NCBI GenBank assembly: GCA_964440805.1
Contig: CAYTTR010000003.1
Coordinates: forward strand, 22,888-86,887
Length of the DNA: 64,000 nt
Direction of reading: 5' to 3'
Origin: an uncultured Eubacteriales bacterium
GTDB taxonomy: Bacteria > Acidobacteriota > Aminicenantia > Aminicenantales > Aminicenantaceae
Below the pieces are notes generated by a model. That model was not told where the DNA came from. It did not search any database and saw only the letters and a program-made list of their open reading frames with translations. This document shows positions 50,567 through 56,681 of this stretch, one piece after another. The translations under genes and the position numbers were made by a program. How positions within the stretch are numbered: position 1 is the first letter of the stretch; each line of letters opens with the position of its first letter.

Positions 50567-51346
50567 ATGGCTGAAAAAACAAAGCCTAAAAAAAAGAATG
50601 AAATTCCTGATATTTTTGAAGACTCCTTTTTCATTTCAGAAAAAGGAGGTGCCCGGAGAGCCTTAGCTTTTCCCATTGCCCTCCTTCTTCATGCGACTCT
50701 TGTTGCTGCCATGATTGTTATTCCTCTTCTCAACACCACCAACCTTCCCCAAGTCGAAGTCTACAGCGCCTTTCTCGCCCCTCCTCCACCACCTCCCCCC
50801 CCACCACCTCCTCCGGCCAAGAAAAAAGCCAGATCTGAGACCAGAACCCGAATTAAACCTGTCCAAGCTCAGTCAACTATTCAACCCGGCCAATTAGTAG
50901 CACCGGTGGACATTCCAGAAGAAATTGCCGAAGAAGAACTTTCCGATATTGGCATTGAAGGCGGAGTTGAAGGCGGAGTTGAGGGCGGAGTGGTTGGTGG
51001 AGTTCTTGGTGGAGTAGTCGGCGGAGTCCTGGGTGGAGTGGTTGGTGAAGTTGAAGAAGCTCCTGTCAGAGCTGTTGGTGAGATAAAACCGCCTAAACTT
51101 ATTAAAAAGGTAGAACCAACTTACCCCGAAATCGCCCGCCAGGCACGGGTAGAAGGTGTGGTTATTCTGGAATGTATTACTGACATTTATGGACGAGTTC
51201 AGAATGTCAAGGTTCTTCGCTCCATTCCTCTTCTGGAACAGGCTGCCATTGATGCAGTTCGACAGTGGGTTTATGAGCCGATGATTATCAACGGTCGTCC
51301 CAGGGGAGTTATTTTTACTGTTACTGTTATCTTTAAATTGAAATAG
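50567..51346 (+). CDS. tonB: TonB-family energy transducer
   Basis: N-terminal TM, poly-Pro run, Gly-Gly-Val repeats, C-terminal TonB_C. Confidence 0.75.
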   Translation: MAEKTKPKKKNEIPDIFEDSFFISEKGGARRALAFPIALLLHATLVAAMIVIPLLNTTNLPQVEVYSAFLAPPPPPPPPPPPPAKKKARSETRTRIKPVQAQSTIQPGQLVAPVDIPEEIAEEELSDIGIEGGVEGGVEGGVVGGVLGGVVGGVLGGVVGEVEEAPVRAVGEIKPPKLIKKVEPTYPEIARQARVEGVVILECITDIYGRVQNVKVLRSIPLLEQAAIDAVRQWVYEPMIINGRPRGVIFTVTVIFKLK

Positions 51347-51397: not shown

Positions 51398-52078
51398 ATG
51401 CAATTTGGTCTAATTGAAATGTGGCAGGCCATGGGAGTTGTGGTCAAGTTTGTTGCCTTTATCTTGATCTTCCTCTCCATCATCACGTTGTATTTTTTCA
51501 TCGAACGGCAGTGGGTCTTCTTTAAAGCTCGCAAAAAATCAAAAGAAATCGCTCCAAAACTTGCTGATCTGATGAAAAGCGGAAAAATCCAGGAGGCCCT
51601 TACTCTTTCTTCGAAAAAAGAGAACAGGGGAAGCCATTTAGCCAGAGTGACTGCTGCCGGCATTAAAGAATTTCTGGAAGGAAAAGAAGTCAATCTTCCT
51701 CTGGAAGAACAAATTGAGTCAGCCCGAAGAGGATGTGAAAGAGCTTCAAACATCTTCACCCAGGAATTAAAGAAAGGCTTAAACACCCTGGCAACTATCG
51801 CTACCTCATCACCCTTTATCGGGTTGTTCGGAACAATCGCTGGAATCATTAACGCTTTCCGGGGGATGGCTCTGACCGGTTCCGGCGGAATCGGTGCTGT
51901 TGCCCAGGGAATCGCTGAAGCTCTGGTAGCGACAGCCTTCGGAATCGGCGTGGCTATTATCGCCCTCTGGTGCTATAACTTCCTTAATACAAGGATAGAA
52001 CTTTACAACTCCGAAATGTCCAATATGAGTTCTGAAATTATCGATTTCTTTGTAAGAAGAACTGAAGGCAAGGCTTAA
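51398..52078 (+). CDS. exbB: MotA/TolQ/ExbB proton-channel protein
   Basis: 3 TM helices; SSPFIGLFGTIAGIINAF motif. Confidence 0.8.
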   Translation: MQFGLIEMWQAMGVVVKFVAFILIFLSIITLYFFIERQWVFFKARKKSKEIAPKLADLMKSGKIQEALTLSSKKENRGSHLARVTAAGIKEFLEGKEVNLPLEEQIESARRGCERASNIFTQELKKGLNTLATIATSSPFIGLFGTIAGIINAFRGMALTGSGGIGAVAQGIAEALVATAFGIGVAIIALWCYNFLNTRIELYNSEMSNMSSEIIDFFVRRTEGKA

Positions 52079-52114
52079 AAAAGCCTTAATCCAACTATAA
52101 TATAGGGGAATAAA

Positions 52115-52540
52115 ATGGCTGTTTCAGTTAAAACAGGAAAAGAAGGCGAAGTTTCAGCAGAACCCAATGTGGTTCCGCTGTGCGATGTTCTTCTGGTGCT
52201 GCTAATCATCTTCATGGTTGTCACTCCCCTGGTACAAAAAGGAGCGGATGTTCGTCTTCCCACTGCTCTAAACACAATTAACCAGCCGGAAAATCCAGAG
52301 GTAGTTTTATCTATTAAAAGAGATGGAACCATATTCGTTAACCAGGATGAAGCTACCATGGATAACCTTCACACGCTGCTCGAAGATGCATTTTTAACCG
52401 CCAGCGATAATAAGTTGTTTCTCAGAGCTGATCAAGATCTTGAATATGGAAAAATAGTTGATGTTATCGATATCCTAAAGAATGCCGGCGTTGAAGTTGT
52501 GGGAATTATTACCGAAAAGAAAACAGAGAAAGCAAGATAA
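52115..52540 (+). CDS. exbD: ExbD/TolR biopolymer transport protein
   Basis: PNVVPLCDVLLVLLIIFMV TM with the conserved Asp. Confidence 0.8.
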   Translation: MAVSVKTGKEGEVSAEPNVVPLCDVLLVLLIIFMVVTPLVQKGADVRLPTALNTINQPENPEVVLSIKRDGTIFVNQDEATMDNLHTLLEDAFLTASDNKLFLRADQDLEYGKIVDVIDILKNAGVEVVGIITEKKTEKAR

Positions 52541-52556
52541 TATCCGCTCGTAGAAC

Positions 52557-53684
52557 CTAACCGGAGTTTTTAAAGTTACAAGCCGCGGGGGAAGAAAGAT
52601 AATTTTCAACATCGTTCTTTCCCCGTGGCTTTTTCTCTAACCCCCCCTCCCAAATTTCCTTTGATTCCATGCAGAAATAAAAAGGAATTTTTCTTCCTTT
52701 GGAAAATTTCCTGAATACATTGATAATGTTAAGATACAGCTCAAGCCTCAAAGGCCTGAAATAGCGCAATTTCCCATCTATTCCAGGAATCATCTCTTCA
52801 TCTGTTATCCTGGTTAAGGGAAACCTATCCTTGATTATTTCCTTCATCTTTCTGGGAAACCTCAGACTTCCTAAGCTAATCCAAGCCATTCTATCCAGGG
52901 GAATTCTTTTTAATAGGCGAACCGAAAGTTCCTCATAATCCTCTCGCCATCCCGGGTAACGGATAATGGGATCAAAATGGAAAGCCACTCTGAATCCTTT
53001 TTTTATAACCTCAACAGCCGCTTCAATTCTTTCCTCCACTTGAGGAGCTCCTTTTTCCTCCATTTTTACTATAAAAGGAGTGTTTAACGACCAGGAAATA
53101 ATAATATTACTGGCTGGCTCTTCTTTTATTACATTGGCTATATTTGTTGTTTTTGTCTTTAATTCAAAAAGGGCTGATGGTTTTTTCCGGAAAAATGAAA
53201 TTAATTCTCTTGAGTGATTGGTAAGATGATCCAGAGCTAAAGAATCAGATAGCTCTCCTGTGCCTATCCGGAATCTTCTTCCCTTCTTTTTTTTTATAAA
53301 ACAATCAAGTTCTCTCCAGAGTTTATTCCGGTTAACATAAACAGTAATAGCTGGAACAGAGAGGTAATCCTGGAGGATGCAGTATGAGCAATCTAAGGGA
53401 CATTGATAATCAAGGTTAATTATAAAATAATTACATCCCATATAATGAGGAGTGCAGGGACAGGATTTAACGAACTCTCCTGGCTGAGTGTCCAGAAGCA
53501 GGATCTTTTTGCTTTCACCTATAGGGTCAAATGATTGTTCAATCTCAGGAAAAATCTCTAAAGACTCATCTACTGTTTCAACCGGTATTGAGGACAGAGA
53601 ATTCATTATTCGCCTGGATAAATCATATTTCAAGGCGTTTGAAGTAATAAAAAGTTTTTCTGGAAAAAACAAATCACTCTTCAT
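52557..53684 (-). CDS. spore photoproduct lyase (SplB) family radical SAM protein
   Basis: CPLDCSYCILQ aligns with B. subtilis SplB CMGHCHYCYLQ; further collinear blocks (ITVYVNRNKL, LALDHLTNHSRELISFF, IIISWSLNTPFIVKMEEKGAPQVEERIEAAVEVIKKGFRVAFHFDPI). Confidence 0.7.
   Translation of the reverse strand: MKSDLFFPEKLFITSNALKYDLSRRIMNSLSSIPVETVDESLEIFPEIEQSFDPIGESKKILLLDTQPGEFVKSCPCTPHYMGCNYFIINLDYQCPLDCSYCILQDYLSVPAITVYVNRNKLWRELDCFIKKKKGRRFRIGTGELSDSLALDHLTNHSRELISFFRKKPSALFELKTKTTNIANVIKEEPASNIIISWSLNTPFIVKMEEKGAPQVEERIEAAVEVIKKGFRVAFHFDPIIRYPGWREDYEELSVRLLKRIPLDRMAWISLGSLRFPRKMKEIIKDRFPLTRITDEEMIPGIDGKLRYFRPLRLELYLNIINVFRKFSKGRKIPFYFCMESKEIWEGGLEKKPRGKNDVENYLSSPAACNFKNSG
52580..52636 (+). 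terminator. candidate intrinsic terminator for the tonB-exbBD transcript (imperfect GC hairpin plus T-run) lying inside the 3' end of the convergent gene
   Basis: gccgcgggggaagaaag...ctttccccgtggc then tttttctct. Confidence 0.25.
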
Positions 53685-54633
53685 CGGAAAAAAGGGAAAA
53701 CAATCTGTTTATTGATTCTGATTCAACCGTATTTCCGAGTCTTTCTACTTTTTCTTTAAATCCCTGCTTGCTGGAAAAGGAAAAGGACAGGGTATATTCA
53801 TTTTTTTCAAAAAAAGGAGAAGGCTTCAGCTTTATATCTTTTGGCCAATCAAGGTCAAAGAGAATTTTTTCTACTTTTTTCGTAGTTCTGTAAAAAAACG
53901 GATAATACTTCTTCCTCAAAAACTCCAAGAATCTCTCCGCTTTCTGGACTTCACTTACTTTATATTCTGACCAGATAATCTCCACTTCCCTTGATTTCAA
54001 AATATCAAGAGGACTCCTCCTTTCTCTTTTTGATATTCCAGTGAGGAGTTCAAATGTTTCTCTAATTTTATTTCTTCCGAAAGTCTTAAGCTTAGGCACA
54101 AGTAACTTTTGCTCCTTTTTGTTATAATCCAGAAAAAGACGTGCAATCTGAAATGGAAGTTTTTTTTCAAAAATCATTCCTTTTGCCCGGTAGTCCAATT
54201 GAGTAATTCTAACGAAATCCTGGATATATTTAATTGACCGGGGAATTTCTAAAGGGAGACAGTATTTTTCTAAAATTACTGAATCAGCCGAACCGAAGCT
54301 TTTTACTTTTTTTACTACTTCTGCTTTTTCCAGAACATCGAAATCCCTGGAGGACAGATTTTCCTGAAGGATTTTGAAAAACATCTCAGCATCTTTGGCT
54401 TCCTCAATAATTTGAAAAGGGACTTCCTTGAGACCTAATTCCTGGCAAACTAATAAACGCCGCCACCCAGAAGCTAATACAAACCGACCTTTACGTTCAA
54501 CTAACCAAACCGGATAATTTATTCCACTACATTCTATTGAGCGTCGAAGTTTACTTTTATCGAAAAAATAAGACGTCCGGAACCTTTCATCTCGAAGATT
54601 AATCTCCTCAATAGATATCATTTTCTTGTTCAT
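53674..54633 (-). CDS. ParB/Srx-like N-terminal domain protein (ParB-family CTPase-fold DNA-binding protein)
   Basis: N-terminal YPVWLVERKGRFVLASGWRRLLVCQELG resembles the ParB box II GERRxRA region; 11-nt overlap with the downstream radical SAM gene. Confidence 0.5.
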   Translation of the reverse strand: MNKKMISIEEINLRDERFRTSYFFDKSKLRRSIECSGINYPVWLVERKGRFVLASGWRRLLVCQELGLKEVPFQIIEEAKDAEMFFKILQENLSSRDFDVLEKAEVVKKVKSFGSADSVILEKYCLPLEIPRSIKYIQDFVRITQLDYRAKGMIFEKKLPFQIARLFLDYNKKEQKLLVPKLKTFGRNKIRETFELLTGISKRERRSPLDILKSREVEIIWSEYKVSEVQKAERFLEFLRKKYYPFFYRTTKKVEKILFDLDWPKDIKLKPSPFFEKNEYTLSFSFSSKQGFKEKVERLGNTVESESINRLFSLFSDEE

Positions 54634-54690
54634 AGAACTTATTTTATGAGAAATCAGAGTTTTTAGTCCACCCTATAAAACGGTTTTTTT

Positions 54691-54822
54691 CGTTTATTTA
54701 GTTTATTTCGTTTATTTAGCTTGAAAATACGGAATCCGGTCTGTTCAATCTATTCGGTTAAGTCAACTTATTCTTTAAGTTTAGATTGTGTGAGAAGGGC
54801 GAGACGAGCGAGAAAAGCAGCC
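54691..54822. repeat. composite intergenic repeat (array CGTTTATTTAGTTTATTTCGTTTATTTAG, GGTCTGTTCAATCTATTCGGTT, GAG-box GAGAAGGGCGAGACGAGCGAGAAAAGC)
   Basis: homologous modules at 6 other loci. Confidence 0.6.
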
Positions 54823-54996
54823 GGTATCCGCAGAAATGATAAAGGTACATTTTCATCCATAGCAGGTGGCAAGGCCGCCATGAGAAACCCATTTCTATTT
54901 AAGGCCGATATACCCTCTGGACTTGAGAGCATCAGATTTCTGAGACACCCCGGTCTTTACTCATTCATTTAATTTTGTTATTTTTGGCTGAAAGAA

Positions 54997-55707
54997 ATGA
55001 GAGAAAAATCAATAGTCAAGCCTTCCCTGTTGAAAGATATAAAGGTAAAAAGGGCTTTTTACCTACCCTTTGATAGACCTGGATCGAGCATCTGGAAAGA
55101 ACTTAAAAAAAATGCCAGCAAGAAAAAAGAACTCGGTTACGGAGTGCTTTTCTATCTCCCGCAAGCATTGGTTCTTTGCCAGTCTGTAGGAGCTCCAGCT
55201 GCTATCATTGGTCTGGAACAACTGACTGTTTCCGGTCTTTCTGAAGTAGTTCTGCTTGGTTGGTGCGGAGCCTTGAACAGGAATAGAAAAATTGGAGAGG
55301 CGGTAAGTATCTATCAAGCTTATTCCAATGAAGGAACCTCCAGCCATTATTTTCCCCGTAAAAAAGTATTTTACCCTGACAAGCTGCTCAAAAAGAGACT
55401 GGAACAGAAATTGATTTCACTGGGTTTATCCTTTACTGAAGGAAACCTTGTTTCAACAGATGCACCTTACCGGGAAACACCATCCTGGATACTCAGGCAA
55501 AAAGAAAAAAATATCGGTTTTGTGGACATGGAAGCATCAGCTGTTTTTGCCTGGGCGAAATTCCGTCATATCAAGGCTGCAGCCTTGATGATAGTAAGCG
55601 ACCTGGTTGAACCCAATTGTTGGACTCCCGGTTTTGGCAACAGATATTTTACTTCCCAGGTTAAAAATTACTTTTTGCCTCTACTTTTTACTGAAAATCC
55701 ATTTTAG
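54997..55707 (+). CDS. PNP_UDP_1 family nucleoside phosphorylase/nucleosidase (MTA/SAH nucleosidase- or futalosine hydrolase-like)
   Basis: GFVDMEASAVFAWA matches the family-1 nucleosidase motif. Confidence 0.55.
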   Translation: MREKSIVKPSLLKDIKVKRAFYLPFDRPGSSIWKELKKNASKKKELGYGVLFYLPQALVLCQSVGAPAAIIGLEQLTVSGLSEVVLLGWCGALNRNRKIGEAVSIYQAYSNEGTSSHYFPRKKVFYPDKLLKKRLEQKLISLGLSFTEGNLVSTDAPYRETPSWILRQKEKNIGFVDMEASAVFAWAKFRHIKAAALMIVSDLVEPNCWTPGFGNRYFTSQVKNYFLPLLFTENPF

Positions 55708-55721
55708 CGAGGAGGAAAAGA

Positions 55722-56681
55722 ATGAAACCTAAGGTTCTAATCACCAGGGATATTCTTCAAGAGGCTGAAAAATATTTAAAACAACATGTTACCTGTGAGA
55801 TGGCCGCTACCGGCCGCCGGCCTTCCAAAAAAGAAATTATCAGAAAAATCGGGGATAAACAGGGCTTGTATACCCTTCTTGTTGATGAAATTGACCGGGA
55901 AATAATCGATGCTGGCCGGGAACTAAAAATTATTGCCAACTGTGCCGTCGGATATGACAATATTGACGTCAACTATGCCAGGAGAAAAGGAATTATGGTG
56001 ACTAATACACCAGGAGTATTAACCGAAACCACAGCCGACCTAACCTGGGCCTTAATTCTGGCCACGGCCCGGCGTCTTCCGGAGGCTGACCGGTACATTA
56101 GAGAAGGAAAATTCAAGGGCTGGGAACTCGATCTGTTTCTGGGACAAGAAGTTACTGACAAACAACTGGGCATAATCGGAATGGGGCGGATTGGCCGGAC
56201 AGTGGCCAAGAAAGCCCTGGGTTTTCAAATGAAAGTGGTCTATTGTGATCCAAATAAACTTTCTTCTTTAGAGGAAAAAGAACTGCGTGCCTCTTACCTT
56301 TCATTTGAAGAGCTTTTATCTACTTCAGATATAGTTACCATCCATACTTCCTTGACTTCTCAAACCCATCACCTGATTTCAAAAAAAGAATTCCAGTTGA
56401 TGAAAAAAGAGGCTATCCTGATCAATGCTGCCCGGGGACCGGTGATTGACGAAAAAGCCTTGGCTGAGGCTTTGGAAAAGAAAATTATTTGGGGAGCTGG
56501 CCTGGACGTTTATGAAGAAGAACCAAAGGTAGAACCACGTCTTCTCGGATTAAAAAACGTTGTCCTTTTGCCTCATATCGGCAGTGCTTCTTATGAGACC
56601 CGGCTAAAGATGGCTTTGACCGCAACCAAGAATTTACTCAAGGGACTCAAAGGAGAAAAACCAGATAATCTTATCTGGTAA
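55722..56681 (+). CDS. D-isomer-specific 2-hydroxyacid dehydrogenase (glyoxylate/hydroxypyruvate reductase-like)
   Basis: GIIGMGRIGRTVAKKA NAD-binding motif; catalytic region INAARGPVIDEKAL...LPHIGSAS. Confidence 0.85.
   Translation: MKPKVLITRDILQEAEKYLKQHVTCEMAATGRRPSKKEIIRKIGDKQGLYTLLVDEIDREIIDAGRELKIIANCAVGYDNIDVNYARRKGIMVTNTPGVLTETTADLTWALILATARRLPEADRYIREGKFKGWELDLFLGQEVTDKQLGIIGMGRIGRTVAKKALGFQMKVVYCDPNKLSSLEEKELRASYLSFEELLSTSDIVTIHTSLTSQTHHLISKKEFQLMKKEAILINAARGPVIDEKALAEALEKKIIWGAGLDVYEEEPKVEPRLLGLKNVVLLPHIGSASYETRLKMALTATKNLLKGLKGEKPDNLIW

What the first reader, a model, noticed from the sequence alone, without database searches (positions are those of the whole stretch)
52557..54633. 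Two-gene operon pairing a ParB-like CTPase-fold protein with a spore-photoproduct-lyase-family radical SAM enzyme
The downstream gene aligns collinearly by eye with B. subtilis SplB (CxxxCxxC block CPLDCSYCILQ and several downstream blocks).
The upstream gene overlaps it by 11 nt. It has a ParB/Srx N-terminal domain with a GxRR box (SGWRRLLV) but no ParA partner and no origin context.
In B. subtilis the SPL partner is the small regulator SplA, not a ParB-like protein.
The candidate H-donor Cys of SPL (GSCTSD block) appears replaced (IGTGELSD), so the chemistry may differ from classic SP repair.
A ParB-type DNA-sliding/CTP-binding protein coupled to a radical SAM DNA lyase could be a DNA-damage or DNA-modification module in an organism lacking sporulation genes. 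I do not recall this pairing being described.
Basis: partly seen in the sequence, partly recalled or inferred. Interest (0 to 1): 0.65.

Follow-up and report, generated by a model that had tools for sequence, protein, structure and literature searches.

The report
ParB-like adaptor with SPL-family radical enzyme
A ParB-like nucleotide-switch protein and a radical SAM enzyme related to spore photoproduct lyase form a conserved, sometimes fused, gene pair in many non-sporulating bacterial phyla; its chemistry is unknown but it is probably not classic spore-photoproduct repair.

Summary
Two minus-strand ORFs overlap by 11 nt: a 319-aa ParB-like protein and a 375-aa SPL-family radical SAM protein. 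The organism is an Aminicenantes bacterium.

The pairing is not a chance adjacency.
- In 85 non-redundant loci from about ten phylum-level lineages with different flanking genes, 62 have the partner directly upstream or fused, and 5 more have it within 7 kb.
- One metagenomic protein (P0177, 705 aa) is a full-length ParB-like::SPL-like fusion.
- About 25 other representatives carry only the C-terminal part of the ParB-like protein (here called X), fused to the enzyme.
- Recurrent accessory genes are a GT2 glycosyltransferase (26/85 loci, not in this window) and a PNP_UDP_1 nucleosidase-like protein (adjacent here, fused in Elusimicrobia).

The enzyme is not an SplB orthologue.
- It fails the NCBIfam equivalog cut-off.
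- Glu replaces Cys140.
- The thymine-recognition residues Arg193 and Glu268 are lost, and the hairpin tip is deleted.
- Three extra Cys are conserved across the family.
- SAM-binding and phosphate-binding residues are kept.

No member was found in viral contigs, and no defence-system model matched. No paper I could search describes the pair.

Best reading, by inference: a ParB-assisted radical SAM module acting on DNA, more likely modifying a base than repairing spore photoproduct.

The parts
52557..53684 (-). SPL-family radical SAM enzyme, 375 aa. It is not an SplB orthologue.
   Evidence: Pfam SPL 114.8 bits. TIGR04070 scores 129 against a cut-off of 400. hhalign against true SPLs gives Prob 100, E 5e-40 over 325 columns. 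There are 2133 cluster representatives at E<=1e-3.
53379..53402 (-). Radical SAM cluster motif CPLDCSYC (C95, C99, C102), including Tyr101, which corresponds to Gt Tyr96.
   Evidence: The three Cys are present in 149-150 of 151 family sequences.
53244..53264 (-). GTGELSD block. Glu144 occupies the position of the SPL H-atom donor Cys140.
   Evidence: Alignments to 4rh0 and 4fhg and hhalign. The position is Glu in 144 of 151 family sequences.
53433..53462 (-). CPCTPHYMGC segment holding family-invariant Cys75 and Cys84. Cys75 lies at or next to the Clostridium-type H-donor site, in the loop that holds the 3'-thymine in SPL.
   Evidence: The role of the loop is taken from PMC3467042.
52671..52673 (-). 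Cys338 of the family-specific C-terminal YLCME motif. The motif lies beyond the stretch that aligns to SPL.
   Evidence: Cys in 149 of 149 non-gap sequences. hhalign ends just before this motif.
53674..54633 (-). ParB-like partner protein, 319 aa.
   Evidence: Homologues lie upstream of the SPL-like gene in 62 of 82 informative loci.
54304..54633 (-). ParB/Srx NTP-binding N-domain (residues 1-110) with GWRR (54457-54468) and ENLSSR (54346-54363).
   Evidence: Foldseek matches CTP-bound ParB 7bnr and Noc 7nfu. G56 and R59 are invariant in 56 diverse partners. Coordinates were checked.
54088..54303 (-). ParB-type HTH-like region (residues 111-182). It is acidic in most family members.
   Evidence: It aligns to the ParB and Noc HTH. 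Median pI is 5.6.
53677..54087 (-). C-terminal X module (residues 183-319): a basic helical part followed by a beta-beta-alpha part with an invariant FFE. This is the piece shared with all fused variants.
53674..53684 (-). 11-nt overlap (ATGAAGAGTGA) between the stop of the ParB-like gene and the start of the SPL-like gene. This suggests translational coupling.
   Evidence: Across 49 loci with an adjacent full-length partner the median gap is 10 bp.
54634..54996 (.). Divergent intergenic region between the ParB-like gene and the PNP_UDP_1 gene. It presumably holds both promoters and contains no conserved element.
54997..55707 (+). PNP_UDP_1 (nucleoside phosphorylase/nucleosidase superfamily) protein, 236 aa. 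It is a probable accessory component.
   Evidence: NCBIfam hits to AMP nucleosidase and DeoD, all far below their cut-offs. Pfam PNP_UDP_1 is recorded on orthologues. It shares 26% identity (E 6e-9) with the PNP domain of the PNP-X-SPL fusion P0219. The fusions are shown. GT2-PNP-SPL operons are L128, L141, L144 and L145.
55722..56681 (+). 2-hydroxyacid dehydrogenase, 14 bp after the PNP gene. It is only a possible accessory reductase (weak evidence).
   Evidence: Pfam 2-Hacid_dh_C 207 bits. It is adjacent in all six Aminicenantes loci. Other phyla have an SDR or an aldo/keto reductase next to the module.

Best explanation
This is a dedicated two-protein module with optional accessory enzymes. 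The ParB-like protein is the adaptor or activator of an SPL-family radical SAM enzyme that works on nucleic acid, most likely DNA.

Proposed mechanism; all steps are inferred unless marked as shown:
1. The ParB-like protein binds an NTP through its conserved GxxR pocket and associates with DNA, mainly through its basic X-helical segment.
2. Its C-terminal X module docks the enzyme. It is shown that X alone is what stays attached to the enzyme in fused variants.
3. The enzyme takes a nucleotide step into its pocket. It is shown that the phosphate-binding Arg and Lys of SPL, and the SAM and cluster ligands, are conserved.
4. SAM is cleaved reductively, and the 5'-deoxyadenosyl radical attacks a pyrimidine.
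5. Cys75, or a metal site built from Cys75, Cys84 and Cys338, completes the reaction.
6. The neighbouring PNP_UDP_1 protein removes 5'-deoxyadenosine or de-adeninylates an adenosylated intermediate.

The base-recognition residues of SPL are lost, and a glycosyltransferase and a nucleosidase recur in the operon. I therefore think the outcome is a base transformation or modification step rather than splitting of spore photoproduct.
For: **Linkage**
- 49 loci have an adjacent full-length partner, 10 an adjacent truncated partner, 2 a partner cut by the contig end, and 1 a fusion, out of 82 informative loci. These span Aminicenantes, other Acidobacteriota, Thermodesulfobacteriota, Binatia, KSB1, Deferribacteres and others, with different flanks.
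- P0177 is a full ParB-like::SPL-like fusion: the A1 HMM covers positions 8-314 at E 4e-32.
- X-only fusions and PNP-X-SPL fusions also occur.

**ParB nature of the partner**. GxxR is invariant.

**Nucleic-acid-type pocket**
- K178, S199, R275 and K305 correspond to Gt K174, S195, R273 and K309.
- The roles of those residues come from PMC3467042.

**Not an SP lyase**
- TIGR04070 scores 129 against a cut-off of 400.
- E144 replaces C140, S197 replaces R193, and G272 replaces E268. A 6-residue deletion removes the hairpin tip.

**Accessory enzymes**
- GT2 in 26 of 85 loci, and also with X-SPL.
- PNP_UDP_1 adjacent, fused or in the operon.

**Precedents for ParB-fold helpers of DNA base-modifying enzymes**
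- DpdB with DpdA (PMC10164549).
- ParB-dependent thymine dioxygenases, often next to GT-A enzymes (PMC13229309; bioRxiv 2023.12.21.572611).
- An SPL-like radical SAM enzyme in thymidine hypermodification (PMC8989533).
Against: - No experiment exists, and the substrate is unknown.
- The HTH region is acidic in most members, and no parS-like palindrome is conserved near the operons.
- Ten loci have a partner without the NTPase N-domain, and 15 have no partner within 8 kb. The ParB N-domain is therefore dispensable in some lineages.
- The GT2 subfamily often occurs without ParB-like or SPL-like genes next to it (45 of 68 loci), and it is absent from this window.
- GT2, aldo/keto reductase, SDR and epimerase neighbours would fit a sugar or lipid pathway equally well.
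- DNA modification systems are usually mobile or tied to restriction. This module sits in conserved housekeeping synteny and is absent from viral contigs and PADLOC models.
Confidence: 0.4

Rival explanations
1. Direct-reversal DNA repair. The enzyme splits a methylene-bridged or dihydropyrimidine-type intrastrand lesion. This would be either spore photoproduct itself or, more plausibly, another crosslink formed by radical damage under anoxia. The ParB-like clamp scans DNA and delivers the enzyme.
For: - The closest characterised relative is SP lyase.
- The phosphate-binding and SAM-binding residues are kept, and a Cys lies at or next to the Clostridium-type H-donor site.
- The context is single-copy, chromosomal and vertically inherited.
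- Other SplB-like subfamilies are paired with DNA-repair adaptors: ImuB-C/SRAP in PMC3765255 and the PCNA-binding NreB in PMC4929162.
- An SNase/Ada-Zn nuclease lies downstream in 10 Desulfobacteria loci.
Against: - A conserved in-operon glycosyltransferase and a fused nucleosidase have no role in direct reversal.
- The thymine O4/N3 recognition residues R193 and E268 are lost, and the base-flipping hairpin tip is deleted.
- Tyr98 is Ile here.
- The score is far below the SplB equivalog cut-off.
- The carriers are non-sporulating and mostly from dark anoxic habitats.
Confidence: 0.2
2. Non-DNA pathway. The SPL-fold enzyme modifies a nucleotide-sugar, nucleoside or isoprenoid-linked substrate. 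GT2, PNP_UDP_1 and a carbonyl reductase process that substrate further. The ParB-like protein is a regulator, or an NTP-binding subunit with no DNA role.
For: - GT2, PNP_UDP_1, aldo/keto reductase, SDR or 2-Hacid_dh, and epimerase neighbours.
- The GT2 subfamily is 54-59% identical across phyla and often stands alone.
- The HTH region is acidic and no operator was found.
- The ParB N-domain is absent in some lineages.
- Radical SAM followed by a PNP homologue and then a GT is the logic of hopanoid side-chain synthesis (HpnH, HpnG, HpnI) and of MqnE (PMC13459092).
Against: - A full-length ParB-type protein (N-domain plus HTH) fused to the enzyme is hard to explain as a mere regulator.
- The residues of SPL that hold the inter-nucleotide phosphate are invariant.
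- Every characterised SPL-fold relative acts on DNA.
- The shared X segment is strongly basic.
Confidence: 0.22
3. The ParB-like gene is just an autoregulator or a chromosome-organisation protein (Noc/ParB-like). On this reading it is co-transcribed with an unrelated enzyme, and the adjacency is inherited synteny without physical cooperation.
For: Within Aminicenantes the whole neighbourhood is syntenic, so adjacency there could be inherited.
Against: - The adjacency persists across phyla where both flanks differ.
- There is a gene fusion and there are X-domain fusions.
- Start and stop codons overlap, with a median gap of 10 bp.
- The partner evolves fast (about 33% identity) but stays linked.
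Confidence: 0.03

Closest known systems
Spore photoproduct lyase SplB (Geobacillus/Bacillus; PDB 4FHC-4FHG, 4RH0)
   Same: - Same Pfam family and fold.
- CxxxCxxC motif and Tyr96 equivalent.
- SAM ligands K174 and S195.
- Phosphate-binding R273 and K309.
- Collinear over 325 columns.
   Different: - C140 is Glu, and Y98 is Ile here.
- R193 is Ser and E268 is Gly.
- The hairpin tip (Y300-Y305) is deleted.
- Three extra Cys are invariant, with HFDP and YLCME motifs and a C-terminal extension.
- The score is below the equivalog cut-off.
- The partner is ParB-like, not SplA, and the hosts do not sporulate.
DpdA/DpdB 7-deazaguanine DNA modification (PMC10164549)
   Same: A ParB-fold NTPase with a helical C-terminal domain is encoded next to a base-flipping DNA-modifying enzyme and is needed for it to act on DNA.
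   Different: - The enzyme there is a TGT-like transglycosylase, not a radical SAM enzyme.
- DpdB belongs to the DndB/SspE branch (DGQQR motif), not the ParB/Noc branch.
- Dpd is part of a restriction-modification island. This module is not.
ParB-dependent phage thymine dioxygenases (5mYOX/ParB; PMC13229309) with GT-A glycosyltransferases (bioRxiv 2023.12.21.572611)
   Same: The trio has the same logic: a ParB-like activator, an enzyme attacking a pyrimidine in DNA, and a GT-A/GT2 glycosyltransferase with DxD and EDY motifs.
   Different: - The enzyme there is an O2-dependent Fe/2OG dioxygenase. Here it is an O2-independent radical SAM enzyme.
- Those ParBs lack an HTH.
- Those systems are viral, and this family was not found in 2.9 million viral contigs.
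- The GT2 is absent from this window.
Phage M6 gp53, SPL-like radical SAM isomerase in thymidine hypermodification (PMC8989533)
   Same: It is an SPL-fold radical SAM enzyme that modifies, rather than repairs, a thymine derivative in DNA.
   Different: - gp53 is only about 13% identical to SPL and is phage-encoded.
- It works with a kinase, an aGPT-Pplase and PLP enzymes, and has no ParB partner.
Other SplB-like subfamilies with DNA adaptors: ImuB-C/SRAP-linked (PMC3765255) and archaeal NreB-linked (PMC4929162)
   Same: These are SplB-like enzymes in non-sporeformers, encoded next to (sometimes overlapping) a protein that targets them to DNA or to a clamp. Their substrate is unknown.
   Different: The adaptor families are different, and no ParB, GT2 or PNP_UDP_1 is reported for them.
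HpnH/HpnG/HpnI (hopanoid side chain) and MqnE/MqnB
   Same: A radical SAM enzyme is followed by a PNP_UDP_1-family nucleosidase and then a GT2. There the 5'-deoxyadenosyl radical is added to an olefin and the adenine is later removed.
   Different: The radical SAM enzymes there are not of the SPL family, the substrates are lipids or chorismate derivatives, and no ParB-like protein is involved. The resemblance is one of pathway logic only.

Membership tests
Spore photoproduct lyase (SplB, TIGR04070 equivalog) | Radical SAM CxxxCxxC motif and SPL fold (Pfam PF20903 above the gathering score) | tested here: met
   C95, C99 and C102 are present. PF20903 scores 114.8 against 27.
Spore photoproduct lyase (SplB, TIGR04070 equivalog) | Score at or above the curated equivalog cut-off (400 bits) | tested here: not met
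   129.1 bits. TIGR03886 scores 51.2 against 437.6.
Spore photoproduct lyase (SplB, TIGR04070 equivalog) | H-atom donor Cys140 (Bacillus type) | tested here: not met
   The position is Glu144, and it is Glu in 144 of 151 family sequences.
Spore photoproduct lyase (SplB, TIGR04070 equivalog) | Alternative H-donor Cys at the Clostridium position (Gt Ser76 / Cac Cys77) | tested here: inconclusive
   Cys75 aligns with residue 76 of the S76C mutant 4rh0 by HMMER, but with Lys77 by hhalign, next to a 7-residue insertion. No Clostridium SPL sequence was obtained.
Spore photoproduct lyase (SplB, TIGR04070 equivalog) | Tyr98 of the radical relay | tested here: not met
   The position is Ile103 in the window. 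Across the family it is I 58, F 48, Y 29 and V 11.
Spore photoproduct lyase (SplB, TIGR04070 equivalog) | Dihydrothymine recognition by Arg193 and Glu268 | tested here: not met
   The aligned residues are Ser197 and Gly272. The roles of the SPL residues come from PMC3467042.
Spore photoproduct lyase (SplB, TIGR04070 equivalog) | Phosphate-binding Arg273 and Lys309, and SAM ligands Lys174 and Ser195 | tested here: met
   R275, K305, K178 and S199 are invariant or nearly so.
Spore photoproduct lyase (SplB, TIGR04070 equivalog) | Long beta-hairpin with Arg304 and Tyr305 at its tip | tested here: not met
   A 6-residue deletion spans Gt Y300-Y305.
Spore photoproduct lyase (SplB, TIGR04070 equivalog) | Cleaves 5-thyminyl-5,6-dihydrothymine | not testable with these tools
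   This needs an anaerobic enzyme assay.
ParB/Noc-type CTPase DNA clamp | ParB/Srx N-terminal fold | tested here: met
   Foldseek top hits are 7bnr, 7nfu, 6sdk and 8qa9. The family profile matches PDB ParB and Noc at E~1e-14. As a single sequence the protein is just below the Pfam cut-off (23.9 against 26.3).
ParB/Noc-type CTPase DNA clamp | GxxR nucleotide-binding motif (Box II) and ENxxR (Box III) | tested here: met
   GWRR is at 56-59 and ENLSSR at 91-96. G56 and R59 are invariant in 56 partners from many phyla. N92 and R96 match the consensus residue in 60-90% of those sequences.
ParB/Noc-type CTPase DNA clamp | Sequence-specific HTH with a parS/NBS-like palindrome | tested here: inconclusive
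   The region aligns to the ParB HTH but is acidic, with median pI 5.6. No conserved palindrome was found in 63 operon regions.
ParB/Noc-type CTPase DNA clamp | ParA partner or origin-proximal context | tested here: not met
   There is no ParA or canonical ParB in the window and no GC-skew turning point. A ParA-like gene follows the fusion only in L005.
ParB/Noc-type CTPase DNA clamp | ParB-type C-terminal dimerisation domain | tested here: not met
ParB/Noc-type CTPase DNA clamp | CTP binding, CTP hydrolysis and DNA sliding | not testable with these tools
   This needs DRaCALA or ITC and DNA-loading assays.
ParB-assisted DNA base-modification systems (DpdAB, 5mYOX/ParB) | ParB-fold protein genetically coupled to an enzyme of a DNA-acting family | tested here: met
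   Adjacency in 62 of 82 loci, plus fusions.
ParB-assisted DNA base-modification systems (DpdAB, 5mYOX/ParB) | Modified base present in DNA, with the partner required on dsDNA | not testable with these tools
   This needs LC-MS of DNA and reconstitution.
ParB-assisted DNA base-modification systems (DpdAB, 5mYOX/ParB) | Location on a phage, mobile element or defence island | tested here: not met
   There were no viral-contig relatives and no PADLOC match. The context is housekeeping synteny.
Radical SAM adenosylation followed by a PNP nucleosidase (HpnH/HpnG, MqnE/MqnB) | PNP_UDP_1 homologue coupled to the radical SAM enzyme | tested here: met
   The window gene is 54997-55707. The fusions are P0219 and P0223. 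The operons are L128, L141, L144 and L145.
Radical SAM adenosylation followed by a PNP nucleosidase (HpnH/HpnG, MqnE/MqnB) | Radical SAM enzyme homologous to HpnH or MqnE, with an adenosylated product | tested here: not met
   The enzyme belongs to the SPL family, and no HpnH or MqnE model was among its NCBIfam hits. The product is not testable here.

The most novel reading that the evidence does not exclude
An oxygen-independent DNA base hypermodification pathway native to anaerobic bacterial chromosomes. The SPL-derived radical SAM enzyme is brought to DNA by a ParB-like NTP switch. It functionalises a pyrimidine, possibly by adding the 5'-deoxyadenosyl radical to the C5=C6 bond, possibly with help from an auxiliary metal site formed by three family-specific Cys. 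A PNP_UDP_1 nucleosidase then trims the adduct, a reductase reduces it, and a GT2 glycosylates it. This would be a radical SAM counterpart of the base J and phage 5mYOX/ParB/GT-A systems.
Probability: 0.12. Interest if true: 0.92.

Novelty: new variant of a known kind. Interest (0 to 1): 0.7.

Why it matters
- **A large uncharacterised family.** The family has 2133 cluster representatives at 50% identity and hits in at least 579 species genomes. It is currently auto-annotated as 'spore photoproduct lyase' in organisms that make no spores, and that annotation is probably wrong in substance.
- **A new ParB partner class.** The dedicated ParB-like partner adds a radical SAM enzyme to the short list of enzymes that use a ParB-fold NTP switch as helper (DpdA, phage thymine dioxygenases). 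It extends that principle from mobile elements to core chromosomes of environmentally dominant anaerobes.
- **A ready experimental handle.** The natural fusions and the minimal X module show directly which part of the partner to test for docking to the enzyme.
- **A testable enzymology prediction.** The three extra invariant Cys predict a second metal site.
- **Possible new DNA chemistry.** If the product is a DNA modification, it would be a new, oxygen-independent route to modified pyrimidines. If it is repair, it would define a new lesion class relevant to anoxic life.

Tried and rejected
- **parS-like loading site.** I found no inverted repeat of note in 52000-55100. No palindromic half-site is shared among 63 operon regions beyond shuffled controls.
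- **Conserved regulatory element.** The regions upstream of the ParB-like gene in six Aminicenantes loci do not align. There are no Rfam hits in 51500-56000.
- **Defence or phage origin.** PADLOC gave nothing relevant. A viral-contig scan found no relatives.
- **GT2 as an exclusive partner.** This was rejected. Only 23 of 68 informative metagenome GT2 loci have ParB-like or SPL-like genes downstream, and there is no GT2 in the window.
- **Other recurrent neighbours.** TPR protein, UvrD-like helicase, MurI, EF-G-like protein, GH57, DUF374, NifU-like protein and a RAYT transposase are each confined to one lineage. I treated them as synteny.
- **Clostridium-type SPL sequences.** I wanted these to settle the Cys75 question. 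The last homology search returned only Bacillaceae SPLs.
- **Literature.**
  - Searches for the pairing found nothing.
  - The ParB-CTPase survey PMC12704722 does not mention radical SAM or SPL in its text or in the supplements held.
- **Chance adjacency or pure synteny.** This was rejected because of the fusions and the cross-phylum conservation.

Full report
**1. The observation**

The window holds two minus-strand ORFs, 52557..53684 (375 aa) and 53674..54633 (319 aa). The junction reads GATGAAGAGTGA. The downstream ATG therefore lies inside the last codons of the upstream gene, and the overlap is 11 nt.

The downstream protein is an SPL-family radical SAM protein.
- It matches Pfam SPL (PF20903) at 114.8 bits against a cut-off of 27.
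- It matches the Geobacillus SP lyase crystal structures at E~1e-20.
- Its cluster motif CPLDCSYC is at residues 95-102.

The upstream protein is ParB-like.
- As a single sequence it is just below the Pfam ParB_N cut-off (23.9 against 26.3 bits), with a weak HTH_ParB match. It matches TIGR00180 at E 5e-12.
- A profile of 24 family members hits Myxococcus ParB, Noc and Spo0J structures at E~1e-14, across both the N-domain and the HTH.
- An AF2 model (pLDDT 89.5) has CTP-bound ParB, Noc and KorB as its best Foldseek matches.
- GWRR (residues 56-59) and ENLSSR (91-96) occupy the ParB Box II and Box III positions.

Names on the closest homologues place the contig in Aminicenantes (Acidobacteriota). 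All factual parts of the finding are confirmed.

**2. Is the pairing more than chance?**

Within Aminicenantes the pair is conserved, but so is the whole neighbourhood (dxr-rseP-ispG ... exbD-exbB-tonB-secDF). That alone proves little.

I therefore searched all 1.84 billion cluster representatives with the enzyme. There were 2133 hits at E<=1e-3 and 502 at E<=1e-30. I then scanned one genome per GTDB species with an alignment of 46 diverse members. At least 579 stretches encode relatives, and the best 80 loci were kept. They carry labels from:
- Thermodesulfobacteriota and 'Deltaproteobacteria'
- several Acidobacteriota classes
- Binatia
- KSB1
- Zixibacteria
- Sumerlaeota
- Nitrospinaceae
- SAR324
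- Deferribacteres
- others

I called ORFs and searched them with an HMM of the ParB-like family. The 85 non-redundant loci break down as follows:

| Arrangement | Loci |
|---|---|
| Full-length partner immediately upstream, same strand | 49 |
| Adjacent truncated partner, lacking the NTPase N-domain (mostly Binatia) | 10 |
| Adjacent partner cut by the contig end | 2 |
| Fusion | 1 |
| Partner 0.3-7 kb upstream | 5 |
| No partner within 8 kb | 15 |
| Uninformative | 3 |

For the 49 adjacent full-length partners the median gap is 10 bp, and 31 of them overlap or lie within 20 bp. The genes flanking the pair differ between lineages.

Three kinds of fusion give independent evidence.
- P0177 (705 aa, from a high-GC metagenome contig) is a complete ParB-like protein joined to the enzyme (family HMM positions 8-314, E 4e-32).
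- About 25 representatives of 430-490 aa carry an N-terminal extension homologous only to the C-terminal part of the ParB-like protein (HMM positions about 180-250/300). I call this part X.
- Two Elusimicrobia-type proteins (P0219/P0305 and P0223) have the architecture PNP_UDP_1 - X - enzyme.

The functional link is therefore established as well as comparative genomics can establish it. The minimal conserved partner is the X module, not the ParB N-domain.

**3. Anatomy of the partner**

The N-domain keeps the GxxR motif in all 56 full-length partners examined. ENxxR is less strictly kept.

The region that aligns with the ParB HTH is acidic in most members (median pI 5.6). The helical first half of X is strongly basic (median pI 9.9, net charge +5).

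The window holds no ParA and no canonical ParB. Its GC skew shows no turning point.

**4. Anatomy of the enzyme**

A profile-profile alignment of the family against bona fide Bacillaceae SPLs is unambiguous (Prob 100, E 5e-40, 325 columns). I combined it with the residue roles given in the SPL structure paper (PMC3467042) and with counts over 151 sequences.

Kept:
- the three cluster Cys
- Tyr101, the equivalent of Tyr96
- the SAM ligands K178 and S199
- R275 and K305, which correspond to the Arg273 and Lys309 that hold the inter-nucleotide phosphate of the lesion

Changed:

| SPL feature | State in this family |
|---|---|
| Cys140 | Glu144, Glu in 144 of 151 sequences |
| Tyr98 | Ile in the window; I, F, Y or V across the family |
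| Arg193 (binds the dihydrothymine) | Ser197 |
| Glu268 (binds the dihydrothymine) | Gly272 |
| Beta-hairpin tip (Arg304, Tyr305) | Removed by a six-residue deletion |

New:
- Cys75, Cys84 and Cys338 are essentially universal, as are His236 and Asp238 (the HFDP motif) and a C-terminal YLCME...W motif.
- Cys75 lies in the loop that holds the 3'-thymine in SPL. It sits at or one residue from the position where Clostridium SPLs carry their H-donor Cys.
- Cys338 follows Tyr336, which may be the equivalent of SPL Tyr339. The profile alignment ends just before this point, so the correspondence is a guess.

Whether the three Cys form an auxiliary metal site in the substrate pocket is my inference, because I could not read model coordinates.

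The protein fails the curated equivalog thresholds: TIGR04070 scores 129 against 400, and TIGR03886 scores 51 against 438. It should not be filed as SplB.

**5. Accessory genes**

- **GT2 glycosyltransferase.**
  - It is about 277 aa and matches Pfam Glycos_transf_2 at 130 bits.
  - Copies are 54-59% identical across phyla.
  - It lies immediately upstream of the ParB-like gene on the same strand in 26 of 85 loci, across several phyla.
  - It precedes the P0177 fusion and overlaps an X-enzyme fusion gene.
  - The link is not exclusive: of 68 informative metagenome loci with this GT2, only 23 have the pair downstream.
  - There is none in this window.
- **PNP_UDP_1 protein.**
  - It is divergently adjacent in the window (54997..55707) and in three other Aminicenantes loci.
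  - It is fused to the enzyme in Elusimicrobia.
  - It sits between GT2 and a shorter SPL-like gene in four metagenome operons.
- **NAD(P)H carbonyl reductases.** Three unrelated families sit beside the module in different phyla: 2-Hacid_dh in Aminicenantes, SDR in Thermodesulfobacteriota, and aldo/keto reductase in KSB1, Deferribacteres and Elusimicrobia. Such families are common, so I treat this as a hint only.
- **SNase/Ada-Zn nuclease.** It follows the enzyme in ten Desulfobacteria loci.

The family is absent from 2.9 million viral contigs and matches no PADLOC model.

**6. How it most likely works**

*Shown:*
- The genetic and physical (fusion) coupling of the enzyme with the X module of a ParB-type protein.
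- Retention of the SAM, cluster and phosphate ligands.
- Loss of the thymine-dimer recognition residues and of the hairpin tip.
- Recurrent GT2 and PNP_UDP_1 partners.

*Inferred:*
- The ParB-like protein gives the enzyme access to DNA, as DpdB does for DpdA (PMC10164549) and as phage ParBs do for thymine dioxygenases on dsDNA (PMC13229309).
- The loss of the enzyme's own flipping hairpin fits such dependence.
- The PNP_UDP_1 protein either clears 5'-deoxyadenosine or trims an adenosylated intermediate. The latter is what HpnG and MqnB do after the adenosylating enzymes HpnH and MqnE. I read the HpnH, HpnG and MqnE steps in PMC13459092. The role of MqnB is from my own knowledge.
- The in-operon glycosyltransferase argues for a multi-step transformation rather than direct reversal. 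Phage clusters of a base oxidase, a ParB and a GT-A enzyme are a close logical parallel. An SPL-like radical SAM enzyme already works in thymidine hypermodification (PMC8989533).

I put about 0.4 on a ParB-assisted, DNA-directed radical SAM step that modifies or processes a base. I put about 0.2 on direct repair of a non-SP lesion; other SplB-like subfamilies pair with the repair adaptors ImuB-C and NreB. I put about 0.2 on a non-DNA (sugar, nucleoside or lipid) pathway, and very little on coincidence.

**7. Comparison with what is known, and novelty**

None of my searches of the paper library returned a paper that describes the pairing. The recent survey of the ParB-CTPase fold does not mention radical SAM or SPL partners in its text or in the supplements held.

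The module combines two known kinds, a ParB-fold helper of a DNA-acting enzyme and an SPL-family radical SAM enzyme, in a combination not described. Its active site is remodelled, and its distribution is chromosomal and vertically inherited in major anaerobic phyla. I rate it a new variant of a known kind, with interest 0.7. The function is unproven, and the present 'spore photoproduct lyase' annotations are likely misleading.

Noticed in passing
window 52557-53684 and 53674-54633: The public annotation of this contig starts the enzyme at Met27 (P0001, 349 aa) and the ParB-like gene at Met5 (P0121, 315 aa). Homologues and the Pfam SPL profile (position 1 aligns at residue 6) support the longer enzyme ORF and hence the 11-nt overlap.
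   Followed up: partly
window 50567-51346: The TonB-like ORF has a run of 12 prolines followed by GGV(E/V/L) repeats (GGVEGGVEGGVVGGVLGGVVGGVLGGVVG). This is an unusually long low-complexity linker.
   Followed up: no
window ~54681-54718 (minus strand): A-rich direct repeats (AAATAAACGA AATAAAC TAAATAAACGA) lie upstream of the ParB-like start. They are not conserved in five other Aminicenantes loci.
   Followed up: partly
window 55722-56681; L013-L030 (SDR); L006 9605-10585, L008 9185-10132, L088 7962-8909 (AKR): Three non-homologous NAD(P)H carbonyl reductases (2-Hacid_dh, SDR, aldo/keto reductase) sit next to the module in different phyla. This could be non-orthologous displacement of a reductase step, or chance.
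   Followed up: partly
window 53460-53462, 53433-53435, 52671-52673: Cys75, Cys84 and Cys338 are conserved in 146-149 of 151 family sequences, in addition to the radical SAM triad. His236, Asp238 and Glu144 are invariant or nearly so. This may be an auxiliary metal or Fe-S site in the substrate pocket.
   Followed up: partly
L050 and L060: MAGs labelled 'Clostridia' and 'Eubacteriales' share the complete Aminicenantes synteny and have very close ParB-like proteins (E 5e-95 and 3e-117). Their taxonomic labels are probably wrong.
   Followed up: no
L130 2089-3819 and 8 other metagenome loci: An IspH (LytB) domain is fused to a polytopic membrane domain (576 aa) directly upstream of the GT2. In 18 GT2 loci a canonical ParB (NPYQPR/GERRWRAA) lies nearby on the other strand.
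   Followed up: no
L005 6029-7081: A ParA/MinD-like ATPase (CbiA/AAA_31) directly follows the ParB::SPL fusion gene. This is the only locus with a ParA-like neighbour.
   Followed up: no
L015, L019, L022 (e.g. L022 3634-4194): An ORF that by eye looks like a REP-associated tyrosine transposase (RAYT/IS200-like) lies between the SPL-like gene and the SDR gene in three Thermodesulfobacteriota loci. It was not run against a domain library.
   Followed up: no
L035, L051, L059, L064, L068, L069, L071, L078, L080, L084: A secreted-looking SNase domain protein with a C-terminal Ada-type Zn-binding domain lies immediately downstream of the SPL-like gene in Desulfobacteria-type loci. Several of these loci lack the ParB-like partner.
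   Followed up: partly
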